A stretch of DNA of 23,729 bases from Amoebophrya sp. A120 (Eukaryota > Protista > Dinoflagellata): assembly GCA_905178155.1 (NCBI GenBank), contig CAJINV010000005.1, positions 7,847,679 through 7,871,407 on the forward strand, written 5' to 3'. The position numbers and the translations under genes are program-made. Shown in pieces: positions 1 to 23,729 of the stretch (the first letter of the stretch is position 1; each line of letters opens with the position of its first letter). The notes beneath the pieces were generated by a model. That model was not told the origin of the DNA. It made no database searches and saw only the letters and a list, made by a program, of their open reading frames with translations.

Positions 1-526
1 GACAGTGTGGCAGCGTGACTCCTGAGACCTTAGAGGGGTGAGGCAACATCAACCCTCCTACACAGTCGAGCATGAGTGAGAACTTCAACACCGCAGCAAC
101 TCAAGGAAGGGAGCAGAAGCCGGGCGAAGAAATTCACACCCGAACTTTAGGTCTCCTGTTTTGGGTCCATTTGTAAAGAAATAAAAAGCGACTCGCTGGG
201 GCCTTTTTTAACGTTAGGAGTCACGCACTAGCGACATCTTTATCTTTGCCCTTCCTTTGCGTCCCCGCCCGAAAAAAAAATGCGAGCTAGTAACAGATAG
301 AGAATGTCGCTGAGTCTGTTGGGGCATCAGGCGTAGTGGACATCTAAGCTACCTACTCCACTACCCCATCCTTTGCCCCAACTGTGGAATCCGTTTGGTT
401 TTGTGTGTTGCTTTAGCCAATCGAACAACGAGCGCTAACGCTGTAAAACCGCGATACGCAAACAGATATCGAAATCGAGACTCTCTATCCTGCTCAGTTA
501 GCCCTCCCCATACGAACCTCTAGGCG

Positions 527-572
527 AAATCTGCATGACAACTCTGGGGTGGGGAGGTTTTTACAGATGATA
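527..572. mobile_element. Right end of a family-F introner-like element; left end not found
   Basis: AAATCTGCATGACAACTCTGGGGTGGGGAGGTTTTTACAGATGATA matches the right end of element 19079-19357. No matching ACTGT direct repeat next to a TAT was found to the left. Confidence 0.6.
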
Positions 573-6500: not shown

Positions 6501-9500
6501 GGAAGATTCCGAGCTTTGTCATGCAGTTTTTCCAAGCTCCACCAAGTTTGGAATGCAGCGCCTAGCATCACAGGTTCTGCAGCCCCTTGGTGATGCCTAT
6601 TCTACATGAAAAATGCCCTCTCAGCATGGCCAGAAGTGGGGACCTTTTGCAGGTCATGCAGCACAGATTTTTGTATGATCCGCAACATGCATAACAAGTT
6701 CGCATCCTTCCAAACCCAGACGTTTTTGCAGTTGATACAGCAACTGTCGTAGCAATTGTCCTCGTTATATGCTTGCTCGCTGCAATACACGTGCTCTGTG
6801 TAGGGATAGGTGGAGTAGTATCCTGAGTAAAAACGTACCCACACCAGAGTTGTAATGCAGATTTGCAAAGACAGGAAGACTTGTAATGCGCATGCGCATC
6901 CCCATGAGAGCCATTTCCAATCGTGTTTTGGAATTTGTGATGCTGTGAACAGGATGAGCAGATGAATCTGTGATGCGGCTGCACTTGCTAACCTGCACTA
7001 CACTGCAGAGCGCAACTTGTCATGCGTGACTCACAAAACTCCTAGGTTTGTGTTGCAAAATCCTCATCCTGACTCTGGTGTGGGTACGTTTTTACTCAGG
7101 ATAANGAGCGCAACTTGTCATGCGTGACTCACAAAACTCCTAGGTTTGTGTTGCAAAATCCTCATCCTGACTCTGGTGTGGGTACGTTTTTACTCAGGAT
7201 AAGTAGAAATATGCGCCCTCAGCAGTCGTGTCCCTCCGATGGCACCCGATGGAGTCGCATTTGGACCAGCACTATCAAATGCAAATATGTCTGGGTCTGG
7301 AAGGATGCAAGGTTTGTCATGCTTGTCTGGCATGACTGGAGAGTTTGTGACGCGTGTCCAAGAAAAGATAGAGACCCTTTTGCTTGTCATGCAAAACGCA
7401 GTGTTCGTCATGTGGAAAGCGCAACACTAAGCCGCGCAAATATTTCTCATGCTTGGCTGCGCATTACAGAGAGCTCACTATTCACAACTCAGCATTACAA
7501 GTTTACAGACCCAGACATATTTGCAATGCATAAGCACCGCTGCTCACCCGTGCTCCCGCCTGCCGTCGTCGGGTTTCCGACCTCTTGCGGGTCCGTTGCC
7601 GAAACCCAGGGACGTATGGGAGTTCCAGGACCGAAATCGACAAAATCGCAAAACTTGTAATGCGTAAAATGTAGGCCACGAGTAGCCTCTGTTAGGAGCA
7701 GGAAATAAATGAGACCCATTGCAGGCCTGTTTAGAGGAAGACGATTTCTTGCCAGAGTAGCACGACAGGAGCAGTCTTCTTTGCCCAAACAGCATGACAG
7801 ACTGGATTTTGGTGCTCCCGAAATTTGTCATGCGCCACTTGGAATAAACTGAGGCTTGTTCAACACAACTGGTATCGATTTTATGCATCACGAAGTATTT
7901 CGATTGTGTTGATTTCGGTCCTGACGCTTCCATAGGACGTAGCTCGTACTTCGTCACGTCGCTGCACACGGCGCAATACTGCTTGCCCGGACCCGGATAT
8001 CAACTGCAAATATGTCTGGGTCGGGAAGAATGTTTTGCTGTTTCCGCACGACACAGAAGGTCTGTCATGGATGGCCTAGCATCACAGATTTTGAGAACCT
8101 TCCGCAATGCCCAATCCGCATGACAAATCCTCCGTTTTTGGTGACAGGAGATGGGGATGGGCACCTTTTGCTGCCTATGCATGAGAGATTTATGTGTGTT
8201 GTGACATGCGCATCACAAATTCGCATCCTTCCAGACCCAGACATTTTTGTAGTTGATACCGGACAAATCGGATTGATTTTCTCCCCACTCGGAACCGCGT
8301 CCTTGAAAGTTTGGCGAAATCCAAGTCCAAACCCCACGCCCGGATAATGATATCCTATTTAAAAACGTCCCCACCCCATAGTTGTCTGTCATGCAGATTT
8401 GCATCAAGAGAAACATTTGCAATGCGCATCCGCATAAGAGGAATTTGTAGCCGTGTTCTGAGATTTCGATTTGTAATGCAGAAAACAGGAGAAGCAGGCG
8501 TCTTTGTGATGTGGCTGTCCTTTCTAAACAGAACTACACTACAGACGGAAGCTTGTCATGCACAACTCCCAAAACTTGGAGATTTGTATTGCAGATTTAC
8601 CAACTTGACTATCGGGTGGGGACGTTTTTCCTTAGGATAAATGATTCGCGATGCCCAGTGTCGTATCCTGACTCACGATGGTGGCTTGGTCCGCTGTGCA
8701 CTTGCAGGTGGGGATGCACCCGTAAGCTATAGCGTGTTCCCCGGGCCCGGGACAAATCAAATCCGGGGTGCCCGCATCGAGAAGGCTCTGGTCTGAGGTC
8801 TGGTGGTTCGCCGGATAGGCGCCGGCGTTTATGAGAGTGCACAACCCCCCCCTCCACCTCGTTTTACCAAAGGGAAAAACACAGGAAAGGGGGAAAATTC
8901 AAAATTTTGCAATGCCTCATTTTTGAGAGAGGTGAGAACCACACGCATGCGCATGGCCTTGGTGATTTGCGGCGGAATCGCAAACGCCAAAAAACCGCTT
9001 ACAACGTATCAAAAGACATACTACGTAGAACGCCTGCCCCCTGGCCTGTCTACAATTTGAAACAAAAGGCCCGCGCTTCGTTTTAAAATCATTGCCGGGC
9101 CCCAGGCGGCGCCGGGCTTCGGGCCAGGGGGCCGGCGCCATTTTCCGAAGCCCCAGGCCATGCCCAACACGAGCAAAACCTGGCCCGGGCGCTACCGCTT
9201 GGGGTGGCCAAAAATTGCAGTCGGGGCCAAGGCAGTTTTTGCCTTCTAGTCTACGGCGTGCGGCTTCGGGCCACTTTTGGGCCCGTTCCTGTGGATTTGA
9301 AATCCGTCCTATCTGCCCCGGTTTTCGGCCAAAATTGGCCGCGCCGCTGTCGCGTCCGGGGCTGCCTCCATTTCTGGGCATTCCTGTGGATTTGTAACCC
9401 GACCTATGTATGTGCCCCGGTTTTCGGCCAAAAAAAGGCCTCGCTTTTGGGGTCTTTTTGATGGCCCGTGCCGAGGGGGGGTGGCCCCAAGGGTACCCCC

Positions 9501-12500
9501 CCGCCCATTCCTGTGGATTTGTAACCGCACCTGTGTGCCTTGATTTTTGGCCCATTTCGAGCCACCGCTACTTCCAGGCTTTGGCCCCTCTCCCAGACCC
9601 CACCCCCTGTCCATTCCTGTGGATTTGCGCTATAACAAAAGAGGTCCATTGGAAGAAGCCAGGCACGATGCTGTTGCGCCGGAATTGAGCGCAAAAAAGT
9701 GTGTCCCTTCTCGGACATACAAATTATACAGGCCGGCCACAGGGCTGCAAGCTCGTGGGGCCGTCCACCGCGATCGCCAGCAGCCGAAGTCGGGCGGCCC
9801 CGGTCCGGCTCAAATAGGGCCCACCCTCCCCCGGGCCCTTTGCGCTAATTCGGAAAAGAAAAAAAACGCGACGGCCAGGTCTTTGGGATCTTTCAGCCAT
9901 TTTGCCGCCGTTGCCTCGGGCGGGTTCATGTTCGACAGAAAAGCGGGCGCCCGACTTCCGGCACGAACGCGGCGAGCAAAAATAGTTAGGAGCGCAAAAA
10001 TATTGGCGACGGTGTGCCGATCTTGCGGAGAGTGGATGGCTGCGCTTTGCTGGAACTCAACAGACAGAAGCGCCGCCGCAAGGAGATCGCGCCGGGCCAT
10101 CGGGCCGGTGGGCCCGGCCATCCCTGCACCACTAGACTTCAGAGAGGAGCTGCCTTTGCAACATACAAAAATTTTGAATTTTTCCCCTTTCCCGTGTTTT
10201 CCCACTTGGTACGTTTGTCATGCCAAATACCCAATCCGCCCTTTGCCTCTTGGCACTGTTTGCATAACAAGTTCTGGTAGCCCAAATTATAGCACTATAA
10301 TCCAGTGCGAATTGGTCATGCAAAACTGGCACTCTTGCTGATGCTTGTACTGCCGCTCATGCTATACAAATGAGGGGAACAAGAGGGGTTGTGCACTGTT
10401 ATAACGTTGAGCCAGGAGTGGTAACCCTGCTCGCATTATTAAAATGAAGAATCCCCCCTCCCCATATCAAAACGGAAATTTGTGATGCTGATTTGTGGCC
10501 ACAAATCATCTTTGTCTTGCATATAGGGTCATAGGAACCATTTGACGCATTCCAGAGCAAGTCTGTCATGCGCTTTCGACTATCGCAAACCTGTTTGCCA
10601 TGCGCAGTTGCTAGCCTTCTGCATACCCAAACAGGCTCAGAAAATGCCGCCAAGCACTTTCTACAAGACAACTCTGATTTGTGTACGCAAATCCAGCATC
10701 AGAAACTTCGTTTCGATATGGGGAGGGGCGGGGATTTTTCCTCTCAATACGCATTTGTATCCATTGGCCCCGACCCCCGAATGAAACGCGGCCTTTAGCC
10801 AATTCCTACACTCGTATCCTGTGCAAAAGTATCGCACTCGTACAAATGCAAGTCTTGCATTACAAATCTTGTTTCCAAGGCAAATCTGCATTACAAATTT
10901 TATTTCTCACGCTGAGCAAATTTGTAATGCATTTATACGAGTACGATACTTTTGCACAGGATAACTCGTCGGTCATTACAACCACATTCGTGCGGCTGTA
11001 GTCGTGAAGGGGCTCTGTCCCGTCCTTGAGAAAGCACTCGTTCGAACCATGCGTGGTACCGTCCGAAGCCGAACCTTCTTCTTTTGCCCAGGCCACCGCC
11101 TTACACAGCGGCTCTTGCGCACACAGTGCGGCGCATGCTACTTCGCTCTCGATGTTGCCCACCGTCATTATGTTAGACCAGAAAATTGGACGAAGTGCAT
11201 GCTTTGTTTTTCGCGCCCCCGCTGCGGCGGCGGGTCGCTTTCGTTTCGCCTCGGGGGCTGCCGGGAGGCCTGACAATACTTACACCCGGCCCGGTGGCCT
11301 CGCTGCGCCATAAAACAACTCACGCGTTGTGACTTGTCAAAGAGAGTCGGGGCAGCTTCCCGGCCCCGAAGCTCCCACCCTCGCCCAAAGGGCGAGGCGC
11401 CCGCCGCCCCGCAGAGCAGCTTCGTTCGTTCCCCAAGGGCTGGCGGCTTGCTATCAGTCGGGGCGGTCCGACTGGCGGGCGCGGGCCACCATGTTTTTGG
11501 CCGACAACGCATTTGCCCTCCCACCATTCCACCCAAAAGGACGGGCCGGCCTTCGAAGCAGTGGGGCGCGCGCCCCACCCTAGAATGAATGGGGCCGGCC
11601 TGCTTTAGCCCCGGCCGGGCGGCTGCCCCCTCTCAGGTAAAGGCTTTGCGAGGGGGCCCGAATTAGCCCAATTCGGCCCCCTTTCGGGGGGAAAATGGAA
11701 CCGGTTTTAAAACATTTTGGGCCCCCCCGTAGCATCGGGCGAAGGCCAAAAAGGGAAATATCTGGCAGGCCTAGGCCAGTTCGGGCCCCTTTTTCCCCCC
11801 CCGGAAGGAATGGAATGGCCGTCCCCCTTGGGAGGGCGGGTTTTGCTTCTGTCCCTCCATCGGCGGGCCGGGGCCGGCCCCGAAAGACGGAAGGCCCGCC
11901 CGGCCCCGGCGAGACTTCTGCCGGCTCCGGGCCGGCTTCGAGTTGGGGCCCCAGGGTGCACGCCGCGCCGGCCGGCTGTGCTTCCCCGGCGTGGCCCCGA
12001 CCCGTGCGGGGGCGAGTGGCGGAGTGCGGGGACATGCCCTCTCCGCCGTATCTTCGTCGGGTCTGGCCGCGCGGCCGCAATGCAGGAAGTTATATTTTTC
12101 CGGAATAATAAAGCAGCCCGGCAACCGGCCTCACCACCGTGGCCCCCGATTTCGTTCCGTCCGCGACCCCCGCTGGAAAGTGGGGGCGTAACAAAGTATG
12201 AACATCGCTCTCGATGTTGCTCACCATAATCATGTCATAATGAGCCATGTCCTTATCCTCCTCGAGAATGCACGGCTTTCCAGCTGCGAATACATCTGAA
12301 TTTTTGATTTTGTGTGTTTTGTGTATTCATCATCAGATTTTGATTATTCTAAATTACTGCATTGATGCTCTCACGACCCAGCTACTATCAATTAATTGCG
12401 TGATGCCATATAATGATAAACAAAAATATGGTCATGGAACTACTAGGGTCACAATTTCGCTTCTATCTACAGACGACAACCACGACTCTAGCTAGGAATC

Positions 12501-15500
12501 ATGGGCTGATGCAACGGTGCAGCAGAAATCATCAAGCATCGTATAGAAAAATTTTCCTCCCCCGTAAAAAATACGGTGCGATTCGAATGGGTAGAGCGCT
12601 TCTTCCAGAATACAAGTATGAAATTCGAAGCCTGCTCTTTCCTCCAGCATCTATTTCTACACAGATCTTTACTGCAGCCATCAGGCTAATAACTGAGATA
12701 AAAGGCGCCGAAGGCGCGCCAGCAATAGCTGTAGGCTTAACGTTGCACCATGACACGAAAAAAAAATCTGGTATGCAACAAGGCGCACTGCTTTATTTCT
12801 ATTCTGCTGAAAATATGCGCCGGAGTAGAAGGCTTTTTCGTTTCGCAAGCGTTCTGCCAGTTGCTGATATCGTATCCCGAAATTTCACTCGGCGCTTTGC
12901 AACCCTGCTGGCAGCAGTTTCCGTGCTGAATATGGCGTTCTCAACTGTTACATTCTCAATTGTATACATGATTTGTCATGCAAAATGACCATCATGAGCC
13001 ACCAGACGACCAACCTCCTGCTTCGCATGACAAATTCTCGGAGTGCTAAACAGCGTCTAAATCTGTACCAAATCTGTCATGCAAGACGCGCAGGCTCCCC
13101 CCTTTCACTTTTGCCATTCTCGCATCACAAATTCATGTAACAGCTGAGAGCGTAACAGTTGAGAACGCCGTACTGAAGGCAGTTGGTTTCGGAGTCTTGC
13201 TTGCCGTTACACCAGGGATATGCATTGCAAAAGTATCGTACTTACTCGTATAAATGCATTACAAATTTCCTCAGCATGAAAAATGTTGAAATTTGTAATG
13301 CTAATTCGCCTTAAGAGAGAGATTTGTATTGCATGCTTGCAATTACTACGAGTACGATACTTTTGCACAGGATAAGGGAACAAAATCACTCGAAGTGTAC
13401 GCCGTTTTGATGTCGTCGCCATCCTGTAGTCGGGTAAAGTACCACGGGCCACTTGGGTTGTTAATGTTGTGTGTCGCATGATATGCATCTGCAAATGTCA
13501 TGTCCGGGTCTGGAAGAAAACGAGTTTGTGATACTAGGTCTGGAAGTAGACGCGAACCTCTGTATTGCGGGCACAGCATGACGCACCCACTTTTGGCCAC
13601 GCGAAGGCGGAATTTCATCTCATGCAGTATTGGGATTGGTATTAGACAGCCGCATGACAACAAGTTGTGATGCTGCAGCTCGCATTTCAGGCCGTCTGCG
13701 TCATGCTAGACCTGCATGACAAACGCTGCAGGGGGGTTCCACACCCAGACATATTTGCAATGCGTACATGACAATCGACATTCGAACACTTGGCTATCCT
13801 GTGCAAAAGTATCGTACTCGTATTGCAATCATGCATTACAAATCTTTTTCTTAATGTAAATCAGCACTACAAATTTTATTTCTCACGCTGAGGAAATTTG
13901 TGATGCACCTATACGAGTACGATACTTTTGCAGTTCATATTGGCCCAACAGGGCCGATTGACGTACCAACCCTTATCCCCCGCGATCCACTGAAACGCCC
14001 GCACGGTGTCGTGTGGCGGCACTTCGCGCACCGCGTCGATCGTACTTCGACTTATCAAATGCAAAAGTGTCTGGGTCTGGAAACTTGTGATGCTGGGCGG
14101 CGTATCATGAGGAGGCCACAAGTGCTGGCTCAGCATGACAAGTTTCTGAGCTTCTAGGTGTTGCCTATTCTGAGTGACAAACTGCGTTTCTGCATGACAG
14201 AAAAGTGGCGCTCTTGGGTAACGTGCATGACAGACTTGAGAGTCATGCCGGACAAGCATGACAAACATGCGCTCTTCCAGAGGACCCAGACACTTTTACA
14301 TTTGATTCGACTGCAAGTTTTGCAATTCTGTGCTCCTGGGGCGGGACAGGTCTCCACGTTTGTCTCGTCCTTACTACCGTTGTCGCAGACACACTTGGGC
14401 ACGCAGTCACTCGTGCTGTCTACAGAAAGAGGTTGGTTGGACCCCGGACACCAAAAGGCCAGATCGTGATCGAGATTCGGTTCGTAGTCATTTTCGTTGC
14501 AGGCAAAACTTACCGTAATTCCCGACGCAACGCCGGTGTTCGTCATTTGGCCGCTCGTTTTGTAGTCGGCCGTTTGTTTCGGGTAAAGCGCCTGGTCTTG
14601 CAACACCGCGTTCCAATTCGGCGTGTATCAAGAGTGAGAACGTCCCCACTGCAGGGCCAAGATGGGCATTTTGCAACACAAATGCAGAAACTTTAGCATG
14701 TTCGCATGACAGGTTTGGGCTTCTAGCATACCAAATGCCAAAACACTACTGCATACAAATTGCTTCTTATCGGGATGCGCATGAGAAACAGTTTAGGCAT
14801 GCAGATTCGCATTACAACTCTGGGGTGTGCTCGTTTGTAACTAGGATAGCGTGGCCGTGTACTTGGCCAGTTCGTAGTCGACGGTAGACGGCTCGGTGCA
14901 ACTCTCTATGCATTGCAAAAGTCCTTATCCACCGTATACTAGAGTAAATCGAATTATAAGGAGGAAAGTGAAAATGCTGGTTTGATGATCGCTAGGAAAA
15001 AAAATCTGTCAGAGTGGTCAGTCATAAATGATTACATGCTCGTACGATACAACTTTTGCACCAGAGCATACCCTGCACGCAACACCGACCGGGCACGTCG
15101 TCCATGGTGCAGCGTTCAGAGTCACATTTTTTGGTTCCCGACTGGGAGATTTGATGGTAGCGCTTGCTCGCAAAGGCACTACTCGTTGCGCCACTCGGCT
15201 TCGTTCCGAGATAACAGTCCACGCCCACCGAGCACTTTTCCCGGCAGTTCCGCAGGCTCAAAGGCTCATTCACCCCACTGCACCAAAATTGCGCGGAGGT
15301 GGTGCCGTCGGCGGGGAGGTGCGTGGTTGCTATGGGGGTGTCAGGATCGAAATTGACAAAATCGAAAAATTTGTGATGCATAAAATCGATACCAGTTGAC
15401 GCCTCAGTTTGTAAGTGGCGCATGACAAATGTCGGGAGCACTCAAATCCAGTCTGTCATGCTGTTTGGGCAAAGGATACTGCTGCTGTCATGCTACTCTG

Positions 15501-18500
15501 GCAGCACATTGCATACCCCTCAACAGGCTTACAATCGGTCTCATTTGCCTGCTCACCAATACAGGCCTCCAGTGCCCTACATTTCATGCATCACAAGTTT
15601 TTCGATTTTGTCGATTTCGATTCTGACACAACCATAGTACTGTCGCAGTTTATATTCGAAGGCCAGTTACTCCACGCGGGATGGCCGGACGAAGACTCCA
15701 CGCCGGGGTACGCGAAGTATCAAAATGAAAAATCCCCCCTCCCCATATCGAAAAGGAACCCCTAAGAGACTTCGCGATGGTGCTTATTTGTGACCACAAA
15801 TCGCGTCTGTCTTGCAAGAAAGCGCGTCTGTCTTGCAACATGGGCTCCGCCCCATTATGCAGGCGGTTTGCAATGCTGTTGGTCCTACAGCATAGACGTT
15901 CCCCATGCTAAGTGCCTAGGCCAAAACCTCTCTACATTGGCATGATACTGCAAGACAAATCTGATTTGTGTACACAAAGCCAGCGTCAAAAGTTTCGTTT
16001 TGATATGGGGAGAGGGATTTTTTCATTTTGATACTTTGTCGCCGCGCTTTACCAAATCATCCCAGGAGAACGGGGATGTCAGTTCGTACCCGTAGCTATC
16101 CGAGGGAGGTGTGCAACCTAGAATGCAGCACGTATCTTTGTCGTTGTTGGTCGTGCAGGCTTTCTTTGCGCAGTACCTCGAGGCGTGGTCGGTTCTCTTC
16201 ACGTAGTACCCGAGATCCCCGCACCAACTGAATCCGCTGCATGCTTGCTTGGCATCGCAGCACGTGTTTTGGTCTACGGAACCTGAACAACTCGCGCCCG
16301 CGCACTGGATATGGATGTGTCAGGATCGAAATCGCCAAAATCGAAAAGTTTGTGATGCATATAAATGCAAGGCACTGAAGGCCTGTATTGGGGAGCAGGC
16401 AAATGAGACCGATCGCAAGCCTGTTTAGGGGTATGCAATGTGCTGCCCGAGTAGCATAACAGGAGCGATCTTCTTTGCCCAAACAGCACGACAGACCGGA
16501 TTTGGGTGCTCCCGAAATTTGTCATGCGCCACTTGGAAACTGAGGCTCCAACTGACATCGATTTTGTGCATCGAAAATATTTCGATTTTGTCGATTTCAG
16601 TCCTGACACTCCCATACTGGATGCTGCTTGCGTTGTCTTTCAGCACGGTGCTCGCGCTTGGGTTGCACTGGTAGGTGGAGCAGTAGGCTCTTCCATCGCA
16701 GCAAGCGCTATGGTCGTCGGCCTCGGAGCATATGAGATTGCACAACATCACCTCCCCCCTCGTTTGTCTTTGTCATGCAAAATCCTATAATCCAGTTACA
16801 GCACTGTGGCTGTGGCAGTGTCTGCATGACAAATTTTTTCGAAGCCCGAACTGTACTGCAATTGCCGCACGAAGTTGTCATGCGCATGCGTCGGATCCAT
16901 GTGCCCTGTGGTTTCTATTGCTCCTCATCATCATGCCCTTCTTCAAATCAGGGGAACGCGGGGGAGTTCTTGTCGTGCAACACTCTCATACTGCAGGGGG
17001 TCGACTTACAGCGCGTTGAGCCTGCGTTGCTTTTCAGTGTGTACCCATTGTTACATGTCAGCGTCGAGCAAAATGTATGGAGAGAAAAAAGTTTGTCACA
17101 GTCACTAACTTGCAGGTTTTGCATTACAAATTTTCTTAGCATCACAAATTTTCCTTGTATTGCAGAAACACTAGGGAAATCCCCAATGAAGTTCGGCTGT
17201 GATGCATTTTTACGCATGACAAACACATTTGTATTGCAAAAATGCGCATCAGTGATCGTGACGAACTTTTTTTCTTTGATAAAATGCTGATTGTTCGCAA
17301 CACCGGTCCCGGTCCGCACTGACAGAGCAGGTTGTTCCCGCGCAGCGCACGTTAGCGACTCCGCTTTTTTTCGTATTCTGAGTAAAAACGTCCCCTCCCC
17401 AGAGTTGTCATGCAAATCTGCATGCCAGAAAAGTTTCTCATGCGGGGCTCCACGAGAAGCATTCTCTAATCTTCGCGTTGGGGAATTTGTGATGCTAGAA
17501 GCAGCACGATATTCGAGATTTGTCATGCGAAACAGCCGAAGCTGGTTGATTTGTGTAGCACATTTTGCATCTTAACTCTGGTGTGGGGACGATTTTACTC
17601 AGGATATTTCGCGTAGTAATTGGGGCAGGTGAGATATGCAATACAAATTTCCCGTACACGCACAAAATGCATGACAAATCTCGCTAACTTGGAGTGTCCA
17701 ATTTGTCATGCTGAGTAAGATTGGAGACAAGTTTTGTCATGCAGAGCCAGCATCTGTACGTCGTGTACAGGAAATTTACTACGGATATGAGATCGCTGCA
17801 CTTCGCCTTTTCCTCGCAGCACACCTTCTGGTCATCCGCGATGGCCCCGGGGTTGCAAGCATCGCCCTTGGACACGCACACCGGATTACCGCCTTTCGCG
17901 ACGTGCGTGCTGCTCGGACAGGCGGACGCAGCGCTGCATTTTTTCACGCAGCACGTGTTTTTATCACTTGCTTTGGTGCAGCTGTTTCCGGCACAGTAGG
18001 TTGTCCCTGTGGTGGCCTTCACGTAGTTGCTGGCATGTCCACACACCGTACTGATGTTGATTTGGCTGCACTTCTCGTGGCATCCTCGCAGCTGCATGTT
18101 TTGGTCAGCGCCTGGGCACATGTATTGCGGGGACTGTGCAACGTGTATCAAGTGCAAAAGTGTCTGGGTCTGGAAACTTGTAATGCTAAAAACGAATGAT
18201 AGACGCACTGCAATACGCAGCTATGCATGGCAAATTTTTTGGCTGCCATGTCTTACGTATTCCGCATGGCAAAGGCAAACGGCGTTTTTGCATGACAGGT
18301 AAGAGGGCTTTTTCGTGCCTATGCAACACAGATTCTCGAGTCATGCCAGACAAGCATGACAAACTTGCATTCTTCCAGACCCAGACAACATTTTTGCATT
18401 TGATAACGTGCGTGGTCTCGCAACTAAGTACGTTGTTGACGTTCTTCCAGTTCTCGTCGGGCCGGGCAGCTGTGTTCTTACCGTTAACCCAACTATCAAA

Positions 18501-21500
18501 TGCAAAAGTGTCTGGGTCTGGGAGATTCCGAGATTTGTCGTGCAGAATTTCGATGCCCCATAAGGTCTGGAATGCAGGACCTAGCATGGCAGATTCTGCG
18601 AGGTCTCTATCATGCCCTTCGTGCATGAGAATCTCCCTCGCATGGTGGTCAGACAAGGGCGACTTTTGGTGATTGCGCAAGACAGATTTTTGTGTGATCC
18701 ACAGGACGCATCACCAGTTCCATTTTTCCAGACCCAGACATATTTGCAATCCATACCAACCACGACACCGCAACTGGTTCCAATCGTCCCCGCTGCGACC
18801 GTATACAACTGTGCAGAAGTATCGTACTCGTAGTAATCGCAAGGATGCATTTTTTTCGTAAGGTAAATCCGCATGACAAATTCGAATTCCATTTGTCATG
18901 CTGAGCCCATTATTTCTATATGCAATTTATACTAGTACGCTACTTGTTTTGCAATTCATAGACCGTCAGAGCTCACCTTGTAGCCTTTTTTTGCACCCGC
19001 GCTCAGCGCTTTGCACTTCTTCAAACAGCACGTGGTCCTGTCCACGTCCTCCACGCACTGGTTGCCGGCGCAGACCTTTATCCTGAGTAAAAACGTCCCC
19101 ACCCCAGAGTCAAGATGAGGACTCTGCAACACAAACCTAGAAGTTTTGGGAGTCACGCATGACAAGTTCCAGTCCGTAGTGTAGTGCAGGTTGGCAAGGA
19201 TAGCCGCATTATAAATCCATCTGCTTATGCTGTTTCCAGCATCACAAATTCCTCTAAACGGTTGGAAATGCCTATCATGGGGATGCGCGTCACAAATGTT
19301 CCTGTCATTGCAAATCTGCATGACAACTCTGGGGTGGGGACGTTTTTACCCAGGATAACCTTGGACATGTCCTTAGTCGGCCAGTCCCACCCACACAGGC
19401 CGTCATCCGTTTGCATCAACAGCTGCTTTCGACACGTTGGGGTCATGATCAAATGCAAACATGTCTGGCTTTGGAAGTAGAATGCGTGTGTGTTTTGTCA
19501 TGCATCTTTTAGATCATGATGCAAATGGTCTCTAATGCACGCAAAAGCATCACAGGTTTTGCGCAGGCCTTTTGATGCCTTTCCCGCATGAGAAATTCCC
19601 TATCTCTCTGCGTAGTAAGAAAAAATTATACAATGGGCATCTACTTTTATTGGCGCTCATGCAATACAAATTTTTGCCTATTCCAGAATCCGCATCACAA
19701 GGTGCCACCTTCCAGACCCAGACATATTTGCCATGCATGGTCATGATCATGAAGTCCCGGTCCCCGGCGTTCCAGGGCGATTCAACGTCGATATCCGTCT
19801 TCTTCAACCAAACAAACGAGTCCGAGTATCAAATGCAAGTATGTCTCAGTCTGGAAGATGAATGTGAATCCAAGGTTTGTCATGCACCTTTTGCATGAGC
19901 ATGACCCATGATGTCTTGTCTATGATGCATGCCCGAGCATCACAAACTTTTTGAGGGCTACTATCTGATGCGTTTACCGCACGACAAATGCCCTCTCCGC
20001 GTGAGAGCACAAAGTCGACTCCTCTTGCCTTTCGTGCAAGAACACAGATTTTTTTAGAAACCGGGGACAGCATCAGAAGTTCAAGTTGCAGCCTGCTTCC
20101 AGACCCAGACATATTTGCATTTGATACGGAGGGCTTGAGAACCATGTGCGTGCACTCGTAGTATCCTGTGCAAAAGTATCGCACTCGTAGTAATTGCAAT
20201 CATGCACTACAAATTTTTTTCTTAAGGTGAATCCGCATATACAAATTTCATTTCTCATGCTGAGGGAATTTCTTGTCATGCATTTATATATACGAGTACT
20301 ATACTTTTGCGATTCATATGCCGCGATTTGCGCAGTCGAGGCGCGCACTTTGCCAGTTCGTATTGCCGTAGTTTATGGCGTTCCCTACGTTACATTCTCA
20401 ACTGTTGCATGGATTTGTCATGCAAGAATGGGAAAAGTGCAAGGGGGAAGATAAAGAAAAAGATTGCGCCTCTTGCATTACAGTTTTGGCTCAGATTTAG
20501 ATGCTGTTTAGCCCTTCGGAAAGTTGTCATATGAAGCAGCTTGATGATGTGGATGCTCATGAGAATTCTGCATGCCGAATCATGTAACAGTTGAGAATGT
20601 AACGTCTGAGAACGCCATATACCAGCGAAATTCATTACCGCCTTTATCCTCGTTCACCCGTCTCTCACAGTCTGGGTAGTTCCCGGTGTCGCAGGTCATT
20701 TTGCAGCCGAACAACCTTAACCTGCCGCCGCCACTTGGGCACTGGTATTGTGGATAGTTCCCCGAATCAGAAACTTGAGCCGAATGCGTTGGAAAGCACG
20801 ACAGCCTGGGGTGCCAAACTGTTTCGGACGCGTACGCGAACCCCGGGCGCAGCGCGTAAAATTCCCCCGGCTTGTAAAGCTTCTGGAACTCGGTTCCCGA
20901 CCGGTGCGCTGCGCGGCTACGGGGCTTGTCGGTGCCCGAGAGGGGCTTTACCAACCGGTAGCCTTTCTTCTCATCATTCGAGGGCTCCGTGCAGGCGGGC
21001 GTTTCGCAGCAGGTGTTCTTGTCACTAGCCGCGCAGGTGCCGCTCGCACATTTTTTCGACTCGTCGGTCGTCAGCCACTTGTCCGTGCCGCAGACTATGG
21101 AAGCGTCAGGTCTGAAATCGACAAACTTAAAATCATGACTTGCTATGCATAAAATGCGGGCAGGAAGTGCTTGTCTTGCCGGGATGGCAACGGCAAGTGA
21201 GGCCGATTATGAGCCTGTTTAGGGTTTGAAATGAAGCTGCTAAGTAAAGCAGCATGACAAAAGCAGGCTTCCGTGCCCCAAGAGCGTGACGCATTAGATT
21301 CCGGCGGTCGGAAAATTTGTCACGCGCTGCTTGATATTAACTGGGCTTCCGACTGGTACAAATGGTATCGGTTTTAATATGCATGACAACCTATTTCAAC
21401 TGTGACGAAGATTTCGATCCTGACACATCCATACAGACTGTAGTCGAGGTAAAGTAGAAAAGCTTTGGCGTCGGAAAGTAGGGCTGAGTACTGCTTTGCG

Positions 21501-23134
21501 CCGGATTGTCAAACCAGACGTCTCCCGAGTGGAGCACAGTTTCCTCTATGGCGTTCTCAATAGTTACATTCTCAGCTGTTACATGATTTCTCATGCGAAA
21601 TTACCTCAAGAATCGACACCATCAAGCTGCTTTGCATGACAAATTCTCGAGGAGCCAAACAGGCTGAGAATCTGTGCCAAATCTGTCATGCAAGACTCGC
21701 AAGGTCCTCCCCCCGTTCACTTTTTCTATTCTTGCGCCCCAAATTCATGTAACAGCTCAGAATGTAACAGTTGAGAACGCCATATCCTCTACGAAGTCGT
21801 TATGGAGCGCTATTTTGTTGATGCACACGCCATCCTCGTTGCTGTGGCGCACCCGCAGCGTGGTCACAAAGGTGCCCTGGAAAAGGAAAGTATCCGCGTC
21901 GGAAAAGGTCACATATTTCGTTTGCGACTTGCCGGTAAATTTCACGCTCTTCTGCGATTTTTCGCCCATTTCGTCCCACGCCCACACGTCTACGTTGGCT
22001 GCGGAGTCACTGTGAGCGACGCTGCAGCTGCGCAGCTCGACCACGAGCCCACCATATTGGCCCCCGCCCAAGAAGCCCCAGGCCCCCGCCGCCCCCGGGT
22101 TGCAGGAAGCAGGGACGAGGTTTGCGAGCATCTCTGCGTACTCGGTCGACGTCACGCAACACGTCGCTTTGTTTTGCGCCAGGAAGCCCGTGTCGTCGAT
22201 GGGAGAGCTGCAGAGGCTACTGTAGCAGGACCGGGCCCACGCGTTTGGTTTCCGGACCAGCCCCGCGCCGGCGCAATCGAAATCGCCACAGGAACAGGGA
22301 TAGTGCTTGTCCAAGTTGGAGTTGCCCACGTCGCAATATGTCGATTCCTTCTCTTTGATCGCCGTGCTGGGAGAGGTCGTCCAGCCATACCGATCGGGAC
22401 AGATATTTTCCATGTCGTAGCCGTCGCGGTCATAATGGCTCGTGCAGCCCCACCAGATCACGCTCCGCGATCGCGTTATGCATTCTTGCAAATATTTTTG
22501 TCGATCTAGGTCTGAAAATAAGTTGTGACGCATGGCAATGAATAGAAGCCACACAACTGTAAGTACTTATCTATGCACCTCCACCAAGTCGATGACGAAA
22601 CGCTTTTTTCGTAGCATGACTCCGTGTTCTTGCGTATTCAACGCATGACAAACAGCGTTTCTGCATGACAGAAAAGCGGTGGGCGAGCTCTTGCTGGCGT
22701 TGCAAAAATACAGAGCTCCTCAGTGTCGTGTGCCAACATGCCATACTATCTAGCATGACAAATCTCGTCGCATTCTTCCAGAGGACACAGATCGATAAGT
22801 ATGTGCAATGGATACGTGTTTGGGATAGACTTCCGGCACCGCACGTGTTTCTATAAATGAGTTGTCGTTCTGATTTATAGGTGGATTTGCAAAAGAACCA
22901 AAAACGGTAAAATGCGAAGGATTTACGAAGAAAACGGAACAAGAAAGACAAAGGAGAAAGACTACAACGGCAGCACGTATGAACAAGAACAAATCTATGT
23001 ACTGCGACAGCTCAGATCGCGAAAAGTCAAAAAACAAAATAGAAACTCAGTCCGGGGTAAAAATTCAAATATAGTACTGGAGGCAGGATTCCGCAGACCA
23101 GGAAGACCAGCTACCGTAGCACCAAGTGTAGTCT
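573..23134 (-). CDS. Giant multi-exon Cys-rich extracellular/adhesin-like protein (partial; about 52 exons, about 2,300 aa in window) with TSP1, PLAT/LH2-like, PAN/Apple and Cys-rich repeats
   Basis: Hand-splicing (remove each TAT...ATA element plus 5 nt) joins all inter-element segments into one open frame, e.g. CDSIRN|EKQCCQRRGVC, QCRARM|IPIGEY, GKA|ELWCKDEGEPVEVR|GCIDNC, EQRC|WSKCDSIGC, CSDL|TCPNYYAK|KSG. Only the ~12290-12815 junction is unresolved. The 5' end lies beyond 23134; the 3' end is either TAA at 563-561 or outside the window. Confidence 0.9.
696..844. mobile_element. Introner-like TIR element, family A (TGCAAAAGTATCGTACTCGTA TIR)
   Basis: TAT...ATA ends; DR TTCCG/TTCCG; removal restores the frame. 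Confidence 0.92.
845..1147 (-). CDS. Exon
   Basis: Core of ORF 781-1239: MIPIGEYIAAES...NNCVSRNCDSIRN, joining to EKQCCQRRGVCPG. Confidence 0.8.
1148..1367. mobile_element. Introner-like TIR element, family G (CAGTGCACAACTCCCCCTC TIR)
   Basis: TATG...CATA ends; DR TCATG/TCATG; removal eliminates an in-frame TGA. Confidence 0.92.
1443..1765. mobile_element. Introner-like TIR element, family B (AAAATCCCCCCTCCCCATAT TIR)
   Basis: TAT...ATA; DR GCACT/GCACT. Confidence 0.92.
1800..2078. mobile_element. Introner-like TIR element, family F (TATCCTGAG.AAAAACGTCCCCAC TIR)
   Basis: TAT...ATA; DR TTTTC/TTTCC (1 mismatch); only 5-nt removal keeps the Cys-rich frame. Confidence 0.88.
2079..2317 (-). 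CDS. Exon
   Basis: SGAAILGFSGDG...LAPYPE, joining (5-nt rule) to TGFHEGSKECCEIPTC. Confidence 0.8.
2318..2639. mobile_element. Introner-like element, family B
   Basis: TAT...ATA; DR CGGAC/CGGAC. Confidence 0.92.
2705..2975. mobile_element. Introner-like element, family C (TGCAAATATGTCTGGGTCTGGAA TIR)
   Basis: TAT...ATA; DR CGCCG/CGCCG. Confidence 0.92.
2976..3193 (-). CDS. Exon
   Basis: RSIANDLSDEEFHCGLKG...ENCCRREGPDSQHPLRCGG, joining to VFLYDAIDASG. Confidence 0.8.
3194..3444. mobile_element. Introner-like element, family C
   Basis: TATC...GATA; DR TCCTG/TCCGG (synonymous Arg difference). Confidence 0.9.
3474..3623. mobile_element. Introner-like element, family A
   Basis: TATGCATTGCAAAAGTATCGTACT TIR; DR CCCGG/CCCGG. 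Confidence 0.93.
3671..3934. mobile_element. Introner-like element, family C
   Basis: TAT...ATA; DR CTGCT/CCGCT (synonymous Ala difference). Confidence 0.9.
4086..4399. mobile_element. Introner-like element, family B
   Basis: TATC...GATA; DR TTTTC/TTTTC. Confidence 0.9.
4450..4820. mobile_element. Introner-like element, family C, with an internal ~100-bp insertion
   Basis: TAT...ATA; DR CCGGA/CCGGA; extra sequence at 4499-4598. Confidence 0.9.
4821..5265 (-). CDS. Exon
   Basis: Core of ORF 4757-5329: TVLGDVDQDLCNEMG...ENCKRSCCVKGCRPPEKLAAVTCAASG, joining to LTVQSSFPYDIHWEN. Confidence 0.85.
5266..5536. mobile_element. Introner-like element, family C
   Basis: TATCA...TGATA; DR CGTGT/CGTGT. 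Confidence 0.92.
5607..5860. mobile_element. Introner-like element, family C
   Basis: TATCAAATGCAAA TIR; DR CGCAG/CGCAG. Confidence 0.93.
5919..6175. mobile_element. Introner-like element, family D (long near-perfect TIR)
   Basis: TATAACCCGCTCAGGTGTTACAATCTCAA(G/A)CGTTACAATAGAATCTG at both ends; DR GCTTG/GCTTG. Confidence 0.94.
6176..6474 (-). CDS. Exon
   Basis: Core of ORF 6073-6522: CIAGCYRPGLGG...DLICAEGYKEKVAGQA, joining in frame to PQLLCSGSNQKVQLRGC. Confidence 0.85.
6475..6737. mobile_element. Introner-like element, family C
   Basis: TATCAA...TTGATA; DR CAGCA/CAGCA. Confidence 0.92.
6819..7201. mobile_element. Introner-like element, family F (true length about 285 bp; inflated by the gap duplication)
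   Basis: TATCCTGAGTAAAAACGTACCCACACCAGAGT TIR; DR AGTAG/AGTAG; N at 7105. Confidence 0.9.
7273..7532. mobile_element. Introner-like element, family C
   Basis: TAT...ATA; DR AGCAC/AGCAC. Confidence 0.92.
7615..7934. mobile_element. Introner-like element, family E (TATGG....TCAGGA.CGAAATCGACAAAATCG TIR)
   Basis: TATGG...CCATA; DR GGACG/GGACG. Confidence 0.92.
7998..8258. mobile_element. Introner-like element, family C
   Basis: TATCAACT...AGTTGATA; DR CCGGA/CCGGA. Confidence 0.92.
8351..8639. mobile_element. Introner-like element, family F
   Basis: TATCCTA...TAGGATA; DR AATGA/AATGA. Confidence 0.92.
8865..10211. mobile_element. Nested 1.35-kb TIR element (TAC...GTA ends)
   Basis: About 45-bp imperfect TIR TACCAA(A/GT)GGGAAAA(A)CAC(A/G)GGAAAGGGG.AAAATTCAAAATTTT; perfect 5-bp DR CGTTT at 8860-8864 and 10212-10216. 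Confidence 0.88.
9286..9627 (+). repeat. Dispersed ~95-125-bp spaced repeats inside the nested element
   Basis: TTCCTGTGGATTTG at 9286, 9381, 9508 and 9614; TGCCCCGGTTTTCGGCCAAAA occurs twice. Confidence 0.8.
10437..10749. mobile_element. Introner-like element, family B
   Basis: TATT...AATA; DR CGCAT/CGCAT. Confidence 0.92.
10815..10963. mobile_element. Introner-like element, family A
   Basis: TATCCTGTGCAAAAGTATCG TIR; DR ACTCG/ACTCG. Confidence 0.93.
10964..12285 (-). CDS. PAN/Apple domain split over exons ~12285-12229 and 11168-10964
   Basis: Spliced sequence GKPCILEEDKDMAHYDM(M/T)VGNIESEVACAALCAQEPLCKAVAWA...NECFLKDG shows the CxxxC...C...CxLK Apple/PAN pattern. Confidence 0.8.
11169..12228. 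mobile_element. Atypical 1.06-kb GC-rich intervening sequence interrupting the PAN domain
   Basis: TATG...CATA; DR GTCAT/ATCAT; recessed inverted repeat CAT(G/A)CTTTGTT..CGCCCCC at ~11198-11220 and ~12182-12200; the right end copies exon sequence. Confidence 0.7.
12291..12815 (-). other. AT-rich putative intron; boundaries unresolved
   Basis: The upstream frame (GYDISNWQNACETKKPSTPA) runs into a stop and coding resumes at AGKPCILEED. No TIR or DR pair was found. Confidence 0.5.
12931..13172. mobile_element. Introner-like element, family H (TATGGCGTTCTCAACTGTTAC TIR)
   Basis: TAT...GTA; DR CTGAA/CTGAA. Confidence 0.92.
13219..13374. mobile_element. Introner-like element, family A (inverted orientation)
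   Basis: TAT...ATA; DR AGGGA/AGGGA. Confidence 0.92.
13482..13766. mobile_element. Introner-like element, family C
   Basis: TAT...GTA; DR CATGA/CATGA. Confidence 0.9.
13795..13939. mobile_element. Introner-like element, family A
   Basis: TAT...ATA; DR TTGGC/TTGGC. Confidence 0.92.
14053..14307. mobile_element. Introner-like element, family C (right end ATT)
   Basis: TATC...GATT; DR CGACT/CGACT (extends to TTCGACT). Confidence 0.9.
14308..14625 (-). CDS. Exon, Cys-rich repeat
   Basis: Core of ORF 14154-14606: LAFWCPGSNQPLSVDSTSDCVPKCVCDNG...CPAPGAQNCKTCSR. Confidence 0.85.
14626..14848. mobile_element. Introner-like element, divergent family F
   Basis: TATC...GATA; DR GCGTG/GCGTG. Confidence 0.88.
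14907..15070. mobile_element. Degenerate family-A element
   Basis: TATGC...TGCAAAAGT / ACTTTTGCA...GCATA ends; DR CTCTC/CCCTG; removal gives CCVQGCTEP. Confidence 0.82.
15071..15330 (-). CDS. Exon, Cys-rich repeat
   Basis: Core of ORF 15022-15441: SAQFWCSGVNEPLSLRNCREKC...GRCCVQG. Confidence 0.85.
15331..15636. mobile_element. Introner-like element, family E (inverted relative to 7615 and 16310)
   Basis: TATGG...CCATA; degenerate DR GTTGC/GTACT; frame kept by 5-nt removal. Confidence 0.88.
15718..16033. mobile_element. Introner-like element, family B
   Basis: TATCAAAATGAAAAATCCC TIR; degenerate DR CGAAG/CTTTG; frame kept. Confidence 0.88.
16034..16309 (-). CDS. Exon, Cys-rich repeats (frame absent from the ORF track)
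   Basis: Hand translation: QCAGASCSGSVDQNTCCDAKQACSGFSWCGDLGYYVKRTDHASRYCAKKACTTNNDKDTCCILGCTPP... Confidence 0.88.
16310..16616. mobile_element. Introner-like element, family E
   Basis: TATGG...CCATA; DR CTGGA/CTGGA. Confidence 0.92.
16731..16990. mobile_element. Introner-like element, divergent family G
   Basis: TATGAGA...TCTCATA; DR GAGCA/CTGCA (either copy gives Cys-Ser). Confidence 0.86.
17076..17281. mobile_element. Introner-like element, singleton family I
   Basis: TAT...AGAAAAAAGTT(T/C)GTCAC TIR; DR AAATG/AAATG. Confidence 0.9.
17374..17606. mobile_element. Introner-like element, family F
   Basis: TAT...ATA; DR TTTCG/TTTCG. Confidence 0.92.
17635..17787. mobile_element. Introner-like element, singleton family J
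   Basis: TAT...AAATTTCC(C/T)GTACACG TIR; DR TGAGA/TGAGA. Confidence 0.9.
17788..18145 (-). CDS. Exon, Cys-rich repeats
   Basis: Core of ORF 17684-18208: QYMCPGADQNMQLRGCHEKC...YCAGNSCTKASDKNTCCVKKC...DDQKVCCEEKAKCSDL. Confidence 0.88.
18146..18405. mobile_element. Introner-like element, family C
   Basis: TATCAA...TTGATA; DR ACGTG/ACGTG. Confidence 0.92.
18494..18755. mobile_element. Introner-like element, family C
   Basis: TAT...ATA; DR CCAAC/CCAAC. Confidence 0.92.
18802..18960. mobile_element. Introner-like element, family A
   Basis: TAT...ATA; DR GACCG/GACCG. Confidence 0.9.
19079..19357. mobile_element. Introner-like element, family F (inverted relative to 1800 and 6819)
   Basis: TATCCTG.GTAAAAACGTCCCCACCCCAGAGT TIR; DR ACCTT/ACCTT. 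Confidence 0.93.
19447..19739. mobile_element. Family-C element with both terminal bases altered (GAT...ATG)
   Basis: DR GTCAT/GTCAT, effectively an 11-bp repeat GGTCATGATCA; frame kept (DFMIMT|PTCRK). Confidence 0.88.
19827..20126. mobile_element. Introner-like element, family C
   Basis: TATCAAATGCAA TIR; DR CCGAG/CGGAG (synonymous Ser difference). Confidence 0.9.
20162..20318. mobile_element. Introner-like element, family A
   Basis: TAT...ATA; degenerate DR CGTAG/TGCCG; frame kept. Confidence 0.86.
20374..20619. mobile_element. Introner-like element, family H
   Basis: TATGGCGTTC TIR; degenerate DR TAGTT/TACCA; frame kept. Confidence 0.86.
20620..21095 (-). CDS. Exon, Cys-rich repeat region
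   Basis: VCGTDKWLTTDESKKCASGTCAASDKNTCCETPAC...QYQCPSGGGRLRLFGCKMTC...FRWY; in frame with both neighbours after element removal. Confidence 0.85.
21096..21433. mobile_element. Introner-like element, divergent family E
   Basis: TATGGA...TCCATA; DR CAGAC/CAGAC. Confidence 0.9.
21547..21784. mobile_element. Introner-like element, family H
   Basis: TATGGCGTTCTCAA TIR; DR TCCTC/TCCTC. Confidence 0.93.
21785..22476 (-). CDS. Largest exon: Cys-rich segment followed by a PLAT/LH2-like domain
   Basis: Core of ORF 21757-22554. LVVELRSCSVAHSDSAANVDVWAWDEMGEKS...DTFLF...TTLRVRHSNEDGVCINKIAL, continuing after splicing to VLHSGDVWFDNP, resembles the PLAT pattern. Domain call made by eye. Confidence 0.65.
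22460..23134 (-). CDS. Exons encoding a thrombospondin type-1 (TSP1)-like motif
   Basis: Joining exons 23134-23074, 22851-22815 and 22476 downward gives CYGSWSSWSAESCLQYTCGAGSLSQTRSRSV, matching the WxxWxxC..TCGxG...RxR TSR signature. Confidence 0.8.
22477..22814. mobile_element. Introner-like element, divergent family C
   Basis: TAT...ATA; DR CGCGT/CGTGT (synonymous Thr difference). Confidence 0.86.
22852..23073. other. Decayed or minimal TATA...TATA intron without a family TIR
   Basis: DR GTTTC/GTACT; removal plus 5 nt joins WSSWSAESCLQY to TCGAG, completing the TSP1 motif. Confidence 0.75.
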
Positions 23135-23307
23135 TATGAGAGTGCAGCTGCCCAACTGGTCCCCCTCCCGCTCATTTGAAGCAGGGCATGAACAGCAAGA
23201 CAAGCGTCGGCAAGGATCCAGGTTTAGCACGACAAATTTGGACAACATGATTGTAGTGCTATTTACTGGGCTCTTACCGGAACTACCGGAGCCTGTCATG
23301 CATAATA
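23135..23307. mobile_element. Left part of a family-G element, interrupted near 23307
   Basis: Starts TATGAGAGTGCA and is colinear with 1148-1367 up to GTCATGCATAATA; the right end is outside the window. Confidence 0.75.
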
Positions 23308-23419
23308 TATATAAAAGCAGAGGTTTGCTGGGGTCGCAGGGGTTATTTTTGTCTAGCGTCGGAAGAGCAGAACCGCGGGAGCCAAAGCCCTCCCGTCGGA
23401 GGCTGCGCGGCTTCGCCAC

Positions 23420-23586
23420 TTTGGTACCCTACCCCGATTCGCCTAATTTCATACCCTCACCCGATTCGCCTTCTTTTGTACCCTACCCCGATTTGGCTAA
23501 TTTTGTACCCTCCTCGAATTTCGTACCCTATCCCGATTCGCCTAATTGTGTACCCTAGCCCGACTTGGCAAATTCTGCACTCTAGC
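23420..23586 (+). repeat. 27-bp minisatellite (about 6 units, one shortened to 18 bp)
   Basis: TACCCT recurs at 23425, 23452, 23479, 23506, 23524 and 23551; consensus TTTTGTACCCTACCCCGATTCGCCTAA. Confidence 0.9.
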
Positions 23587-23640
23587 GCGCCCCGGGTAGT
23601 TTTGCAAGCACCTTGCCCCGAAAGGCCTCACCTTGCGCCC

Positions 23641-23729
23641 CCGGGAAGCACGGAAACCGGGAAACACGGAAACCGGGAAACACGGAAACCGGGAAACACG
23701 GAAACCGGGAAACACGGAAACCGGGAAAC
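23641..23729 (+). repeat. 16-bp tandem repeat CCGGGAAACACGGAAA running off the window end
   Basis: About 5.5 near-perfect copies. Confidence 0.95.

What the first reader, a model, noticed from the sequence alone, without database searches (positions are those of the whole stretch)
14902..23078. A 5-nt ruler, not DR homology, defines the junction
Seen: six elements have badly decayed DRs (CTCTC/CCCTG at 14907, GTTGC/GTACT at 15331, CGAAG/CTTTG at 15718, CGTAG/TGCCG at 20162, TAGTT/TACCA at 20374, GTTTC/GTACT at 22852), yet removing element+5 nt still keeps the frame in all of them. At 14907-15070, keeping the transcript-upstream copy gives CCVQGC, matching the CC..GC repeat seen elsewhere (CCVKGC, CCIAGC, CCQQGC, CCILGC), whereas the downstream copy gives CCVESC. 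Inference: cuts are made at fixed staggered distances from the TAT/ATA stem, probably next to TAT and about 5 nt after ATA, mirroring a transposase's 5-bp stagger. This argues against RT template-switching or microhomology-driven deletion.
Basis: partly seen in the sequence, partly recalled or inferred. Interest (0 to 1): 0.8.

Follow-up and report, generated by a model that had tools for sequence, protein, structure and literature searches.

The report
Hairpin introns cut by position
These are known transposon-derived hairpin introns of a marine parasite, removed together with five flanking bases even where their flanking repeats have decayed, and the cut likely falls one or two bases before the hairpin, a rule that would explain introns whose ends looked random.

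Summary
Observation confirmed; interpretation mostly right but the cut is misplaced. The window holds 49 TAT…ATA hairpin elements with 5-bp flanking repeats (DRs): the published Amoebophrya A120 introners. The six decayed DRs are real. Frame alone does not show '5', because 2 and 8 also keep it. Better evidence: contigs of run X5, guessed to be RNA, skip exactly element+5 at 4 of 4 joints, all at perfect DRs. A partial A120 gene model spans two of the six (20374, 20162) and is reproduced only by removing 5. In 368 elements DRs differ at 4.1% of copy-sites against 1.5% for TAT/ATA, so homology is dispensable. Published 'variable' splice motifs are reproduced by aligner sliding. Not shown: reads at any decayed junction, the machinery, any transposase role. 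Two of the six no longer fold a terminal stem. A spacer rule is already known in Euglena.

The parts
14907..15070 (-). Introner, TAT…ATA, decayed DR (transcript copies CAGGG / GAGAG); terminal stem not predicted
   Evidence: gapless alignment to the CCILGC repeat favours 5 over 2 or 8, and G favours a cut 0-1 nt before TAT
15331..15636 (-). Introner, decayed DR (AGTAC / GCAAC)
   Evidence: end-to-end pairing 0.84; no transcript evidence
15718..16033 (-). Introner, decayed DR (CAAAG / CTTCG); would separate a cut at 0-1 (K), 2 (N), 3 (I)
   Evidence: pairing 0.94; no transcript evidence
16731..16990 (-).
   Evidence: gapless repeat alignment
19827..20126 (-). Introner, DR 4/5 (CTCCG / CTCGG, synonymous)
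   Evidence: spanned by P0001 with element+5 removed
20162..20318 (-). Introner, decayed DR (CGGCA / CTACG); the decisive junction
   Evidence: P0001 reproduced only by cuts (1,4) or (2,3)
20374..20619 (-). Introner, decayed DR (TGGTA / AACTA)
   Evidence: P0001 reproduced only by cuts totalling 5 with at most 2 nt before TAT
22852..23073 (-). Introner, decayed DR (AGTAC / GAAAC); weak terminal stem
   Evidence: no transcript evidence
19751..20735 (-). Span of partial gene model P0001 (89 aa, three introners removed)
   Evidence: end coordinates read from the translations
5266..5536 (-). Perfect-DR introner, skipped as 276 = 271+5 nt in an X5 contig
5607..5860 (-). Perfect-DR introner, skipped as 259 = 254+5 nt in the same X5 contig
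7615..7934 (-). Perfect-DR introner, skipped as 325 = 320+5 nt in an X5 contig
7998..8258 (-). Perfect-DR introner, skipped as 266 = 261+5 nt in the same X5 contig
12780..23135 (-). Cys-rich repeat coding region interrupted by 26 introners (1293 codons once removed)
   Evidence: no Pfam family in 7 of 7 exons tested here
563..11186 (-). Second coding region interrupted by 23 introners (1031 codons); PAN domain at 10965-11186; other mismatched DRs at 1800, 3194, 3671, 8830

Best explanation
These are Amoebophrya A120-type introners, non-autonomous hairpin transposons with a 5-bp target duplication, removed with exactly five flanking bases, and the cuts are likely set by distance from the conserved terminal TAT and ATA (likely 1 nt before TAT and 4 nt after ATA) rather than by the repeats. 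Shown: 5-bp duplication; element+5 removal; decay of the repeats while TAT/ATA persist. Shown at one junction, through a gene model: the cut is 1 or 2 nt before TAT. Inferred: that the split is fixed and is 1+4 (my odds 1+4 0.55, 2+3 0.25, variable 0.12, 0+5 0.08). Inferred: a U1-less spliceosome does it, reading N-U-A-U-(C/G) as a donor with U at +2, with the stem bringing the ends together and the first A of ATA (7 nt from the 3' cut) as a candidate branch point from which the acceptor is measured. The total of 5 is what selection demands after a 5-bp duplication; no transposase is needed at the RNA step.
For: Element+5 skipped at 4 of 4 X5 joints between neighbouring exons, in 2 contigs. 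P0001 spans 3 elements, two with 2/5 DRs; only totals of 5 reproduce it, and only (1,4)/(2,3) at 20162. It begins and ends mid-exon, as a transcript-derived model would; the pipeline is transcript-based (PMC7789003 section 25). 14907 needs 0-1. DR mismatches are even over positions 1-5 (24, 25, 16, 24, 20) and rise with element divergence (4.0 to 11.7% per site, rho 0.13, p 0.013, 378 elements). TAT/ATA variants 34 of 2208 sites against DR 152 of 3680 copy-sites (p 1e-8, 368 elements). In 30 of 30 low-match elements the +5 register is never the single longest microhomology, yet 16 of 23 decided cases keep the +5 frame (p 4e-4 against 1/3). First A of ATA unchanged in 294 of 294, while its partner T varies in 4. 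A DNA-only likelihood puts 0.89-0.94 on 1-3 nt and 0.05-0.09 on 0.
Against: No read or contig across any decayed DR was listed; the position rests on one gene-model junction plus one motif. At 20162 the 1+4 cut gives AT…AC ends, so an aligner preference cannot be fully excluded. The coding-model test is not significant (best one-sided p 0.07; 1 versus 0, p 0.16) and peaks at 2, with wide intervals. Frame retention is lower for low-match elements (16 of 23) than for perfect ones (163 of 184; p 0.02). 14907 and 22852 lack a predicted terminal stem. In-frame 4-nt microhomologies at other offsets exist for 14907, 15331, 22852 and 16731. The end asymmetry is post hoc (p 0.015, 14 events). X5 is only guessed to be RNA. 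PMC7789003 Fig. 3 legend calls the sites variable. No test of machinery was possible.
Confidence: 0.6

Rival explanations
1. Same positional rule, but made by a structure-specific endonuclease and ligase (tRNA-intron or IRE1/RtcB type, recalled) or a Euglena-like non-spliceosomal system, releasing linear or circular introns rather than lariats.
For: U1 not detected in A120 (PMC7789003 section 10); no sequence preference in the DR; only 12 of 249 perfect-DR elements can be read as GT-AG or GC-AG at any slide; Euglena introns use stem plus fixed spacers (PMC12501133 section 8).
Against: Terminal bases vary asymmetrically with transcript direction and the ATA adenine is invariant; two elements seem to have lost the stem; U2, U4, U5, U6 and 83 of 89 spliceosomal proteins are reported present in A120.
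Confidence: 0.2
2. One reading: cut directly before TAT and 5 nt after ATA, whole upstream copy kept.
For: Compatible with 14907 and 20374; no stop codon in the window under this cut.
Against: Does not reproduce P0001 at 20162; DNA-only posterior 0.05-0.09.
Confidence: 0.06
3. Cuts slide: the hairpin fixes the total at 5 but the pair of cuts moves within the duplicated bases from element to element.
For: PMC7789003 Fig. 3 legend; per-position intervals are wide; Polarella introner classes use several positions in one TSD (bioRxiv 2020.10.14.339549).
Against: Published motif frequencies are matched by aligner sliding alone, so they are no evidence of real variation; the three informative junctions (14907, 20162, 20374) share the single solution 1+4.
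Confidence: 0.09
4. Homology-driven joining: removal follows repeats or microhomology (RT template switching in libraries, or repair at the DNA level), and decayed elements are unspliced or joined elsewhere.
For: All 4 directly seen joints have perfect DRs; 268 of 358 DRs are perfect; frame retention drops at low match.
Against: A library artefact cannot keep 1307 and 1031 codons open across 49 ageing insertions; P0001 joins two 2/5 DRs in the +5 register, where one search finds equal or longer microhomologies elsewhere; X3, which looks like DNA, listed no exon-exon joint and one contig runs from element into exon (exon cover there is thin).
Confidence: 0.05

Closest known systems
Amoebophrya sp. 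A120 introner elements (Farhat et al. 2021, PMC7789003; families in PMC12130899)
   Same: Same system: inverted repeats starting TAT, 5-bp DRs, about 240-nt non-canonical introns; P0001, 100% identical to a window exon, is labelled A120 by its source.
   Different: The paper leaves the border unknown, calls the sites variable relative to the hairpin and lists diverse motifs. Here that diversity is reproduced by sliding within the DR, and a fixed 1-2 nt / 3-4 nt cut is proposed.
Euglena nonconventional introns (PMC12501133)
   Same: Inverted repeats, abundant 'slidable' DRs, and spacer lengths that set the cut (3 nt before CAG, 5-6 after CTG), tested by knock-in.
   Different: Different motif (TAT/ATA), shorter spacers, no exonic purine preference seen here, unrelated lineage; not tested experimentally here.
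TSD-co-opting introners of Micromonas, Aureococcus, Symbiodinium, Polarella (PMC11282704; bioRxiv 2020.10.14.339549)
   Same: DNA-transposon origin; intron equals element plus one TSD length, so the protein is restored.
   Different: Those need G(T/C/A) and AG supplied by element or TSD; here any 5-mer serves and both orientations work.
Fritillaria borealis MITE-derived non-canonical introns (via review PMC11282704)
   Same: TIR and TSD, non-GT-AG ends, removed by an adapted spliceosome.
   Different: Those have preferred ends (AG-AC, AG-AT) and a TAC target; none here.

Membership tests
Amoebophrya A120 introner elements | Terminal inverted repeats starting TAT | tested here: met
   312 of 328 perfect-DR elements are TAT…ATA
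Amoebophrya A120 introner elements | 3-5 nt direct repeats at the borders | tested here: met
   n=5 only
Amoebophrya A120 introner elements | Repeated in families across the genome | tested here: met
   44 of 49 window elements have at least one match over half their length in the 141 loci held; 144 loci from one motif
Amoebophrya A120 introner elements | Removed from transcripts at non-GT-AG ends | tested here: met
   4 joints in X5, RNA by guess; P0001; 12 of 249 can be GT-AG or GC-AG
MITE / non-autonomous TIR DNA transposon | TIRs, fixed TSD length, short body | tested here: met
   48 of 49 are 145-383 nt; coding capacity of the short bodies not scanned
MITE / non-autonomous TIR DNA transposon | Cognate transposase or empty sites | not testable with these tools
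   No genome held; no locus matched the host exons
Euglena-type spacer-defined nonconventional introns | CDG…CH'G pair with 3-nt and 5-6-nt spacers | tested here: not met
   Termini are TAT/ATA and spacers total 5; works alike, not a member
Euglena-type spacer-defined nonconventional introns | Spacer length changes block splicing | tested here: inconclusive
   0 of 103 imperfect elements show an intact DR shifted by 1 nt, 4 by 3 nt, 2 by 2 nt; too few, and several are low-complexity
Spliceosomal (U2-type) introns | GT-AG ends | tested here: not met
   3% GT-AG under a 1+4 cut; only U at +2 is kept
Spliceosomal (U2-type) introns | Lariat with branch adenosine; snRNP dependence | not testable with these tools
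   Only a hint: first A of ATA invariant in 294 of 294

The most novel reading that the evidence does not exclude
The 'unprecedented splice-site diversity' of Amoebophrya A120 is largely an alignment artefact hiding one rule: a U1-less spliceosome cuts 1 nt before TAT and 4 nt after ATA, using the transposon's terminal A as branch point, so any insertion in either orientation at any 5-mer is a clean intron at birth.
Probability: 0.3. Interest if true: 0.8.

Novelty: new variant of a known kind. Interest (0 to 1): 0.5.

Why it matters
How tens of thousands of Amoebophrya introns are removed without GT-AG or U1 is stated as open in PMC7789003. Decayed repeats make the junction non-slidable, so existing RNA-seq can read the cut base by base, as was done for Euglena. 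A fixed, sequence-free rule would explain why these transposons spread in both orientations without harm, would correct gene models and published splice-motif tables, and would be a second, independent case of a spacer rule.

Tried and rejected
No RNA holder listed for 14000-23100. Raw RNA runs X6 and X7 laid only 6 partial reads each, and no joint at a window element was among the 15 of 34 joints shown. X9, X10 and X3 gave no exon-exon joint. I first read Table S4 of PMC7789003 (all nine top A120 motifs have T at +2) as support for 1+4 and withdrew this: a simple slide-to-GT-AG model of my own (scoring recalled from how such aligners work) recovers 6 of the 9 motifs against 2 of 9 for a fixed 1+4, and matches pooled frequencies of six families, 1898 introns, from PMC12130899 supplement file 8 (published gt 27, at 17, ag 29, ac 18%; sliding 29-36, 11-20, 22-28, 14-28%). 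A stop-codon test was uninformative: 2 stops under every cut, 3 under 5+0, in 78 elements. GC/AT drift by position was not significant. Paralog search gave one DNA-level case with a third base, uninformative, and one protein case (L003 5330) that disfavours only 5+0. Protein searches for further gene models found none. No whole genome or further contig DNA was available. Earlier findings: none.

Full report
What is there. The window holds 49 curated elements that begin TAT and end ATA (five with a variant triplet), with inverted terminal repeats and 5-bp flanking repeats. Removing each with 5 nt leaves two minus-strand reading frames of 1307 and 1031 codons, encoding Cys-rich repeat protein with one PAN domain (1 of 12 exons hit Pfam). 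The anatomy matches the Amoebophrya A120 introners of PMC7789003 (passages and supplement legends), and a protein identical to part of a window exon is labelled A120 by its source. The elements are therefore known; the question is the junction rule.

Checking the observation. The six decayed repeats are as described; 13 of 49 are mismatched. The repeat length is 5 and no other. CCVQGC fits 4 of the 6 other CC-x-x-X-C motifs, and this region aligns without gaps to a sister repeat, which favours 5 over 2 or 8 and a cut 0 or 1 nt before TAT.

Direct evidence for removal. On 400-10800, two contigs of run X5 (RNA by guess, depth 2.7-3.5) skip 276, 259, 325 and 266 nt: element+5 at 4 of 4 joints between neighbouring exons; the other 7 joints listed came from X3 and link repeat copies. 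All four have perfect repeats and cannot place the cut. On 12400-23400 none of the 15 joints shown (of 34) was at a window element, and two raw RNA runs barely mapped.

The informative junctions. P0001, a partial 89-aa gene model, starts and ends mid-exon and spans 20374, 20162 and 19827. Trying all cut pairs from -6 to +11 nt, only totals of 5 reproduce it; at 20374 the cut is at most 2 nt before TAT; at 20162 it is (1,4) or (2,3). I had noted before these calls that 20162 and 16731 were the discriminating sites. With 14907, the common solution is (1,4). Caveats: one junction, seen through an annotation built from transcript alignments (section 25), and (1,4) there happens to give AT…AC.

Population evidence. 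A motif scan returned 144 loci of the same families (141 held, 474 kb with overlaps, none matching the host exons). Of 358 elements found without using the repeat, 268 are perfect and 90 mismatched. Of 407 elements including the window, 330 could be oriented (dropped: 50 low margin, 16 stop in best frame, 11 short); 81 are mismatched, and in the 78 with up to three mismatches these are even across positions. Mismatch rises with element divergence. Terminal triplets vary at 34 of 2208 sites against 152 of 3680 repeat copy-sites in 368 elements found blind to both (some ends are miscalled, and the terminus library and hairpin score lean towards conserved ends). In 30 of 30 low-match elements another register has equal or longer microhomology, yet 16 of 23 decided cases keep the +5 frame (13 undecided), against 163 of 184 for perfect repeats (99 undecided); that is above chance but lower than the control. 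DNA alone cannot fix the split: in 76 elements (two with a stop under every cut dropped) the coding-model test favours 1-3 without significance, and adding a mutation spectrum gives posteriors of 0.05-0.09 for 0, 0.3 for 1, 0.43-0.5 for 2, 0.14-0.17 for 3.

Against a pure stem ruler. Four of the six fold end to end (0.62-0.94), but 14907 (0.01) and 22852 (0.13) do not, against a median of 0.80 for perfect-repeat elements. Both keep TAT and ATA, so the triplets may matter more than a long stem, or these two are spliced poorly. In 294 oriented elements the first A of ATA never varies while its pairing partner varies 4 times, and the last A varies 8 times against 2 for the first T (post hoc p 0.015). 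Under (1,4) the intron starts N-U-A-U with U at +2, and that invariant A lies 7 nt from the 3' cut. That it is a branch point is my inference from general spliceosome chemistry (recalled), not a result.

The literature. PMC7789003 (abstract, sections 10 and 25, passages, supplement legends and Table S4 rows; figures not visible, and Figs 3 and S19-S23 may bear on this) reports the inverted and direct repeats, no U1, variable sites and an unknown border. Its motif table and the family counts of PMC12130899 (passages; 22 of 58 A120 rows of supplement file 8; files 13 and 14 not searched) are matched by sliding within the repeat, not by any fixed cut, so they neither support nor contradict a fixed rule. 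PMC12501133 (passages, sections 5 and 8) shows a tested spacer rule in Euglena and the same use of non-slidable introns. PMC11282704 and bioRxiv 2020.10.14.339549 (passages; supplements not seen) describe TSD co-option. PMC13326754 was seen as a listing and a term search with no hits. Searches found no paper stating the cut position for Amoebophrya; subscription papers are largely missing from that library.

Verdict. Known elements; the claim that position rather than homology sets the junction is well supported, the proposed offsets are probably off by one or two bases, and the machinery is untested. Interest 0.5: it makes an acknowledged open question testable with existing data, but the position rests on thin evidence and a comparable rule is known in Euglena.

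Noticed in passing
window 8830-10403 and 8865-10211: An introner related to the one at 1148 carries a nested 1347-bp element with 44-nt TIRs (TAC…GTA) and its own perfect 5-bp repeat CGTTT; the frame is restored by removing the outer element +5. ORFs inside were listed but not searched. Possibly an intron within an intron.
   Followed up: partly
window 7008-7202: 98-nt exact duplication around an N at 7105 inside the 6819-7201 element: likely an assembly gap artefact.
   Followed up: no
window 10965-11186 and 12194-12240: PAN domain exon (Pfam PF00024, E 5e-6) and a 34-nt 85% identical repeat 1062 nt away around a GC-rich stretch; the two reading frames may be one gene joined across 11190-12780.
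   Followed up: partly
window 19447-19739, 14053-14307, 13482-13766, 12931-13172: Elements with variant terminal triplets (transcript ends CAT…ATC, AAT, TAC) but perfect repeats and an intact frame: natural mutants for testing which terminal bases are needed.
   Followed up: partly
L025 3475-3802; L134 373-526; L073 6365-6573; L114 301-555: Intact repeat displaced from the terminus by 3 nt (L025, L134) or apparent 8-nt or 7-nt repeats (L073, L114): a ruler and a homology rule predict different mRNAs here.
   Followed up: partly
window 430-575 and 23136-23310: Further introner-like ends beyond the stop codon and upstream of the last exon, not paired or curated.
   Followed up: no
window 23418-23729: 27-nt tandem repeats followed by a 16-nt unit array to the window's end.
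   Followed up: no
330 oriented elements: Insertion phase is skewed (146 with the first repeat base at codon position 3, against 93 and 91) and repeat positions 4-5 lean to G; unexplained.
   Followed up: no
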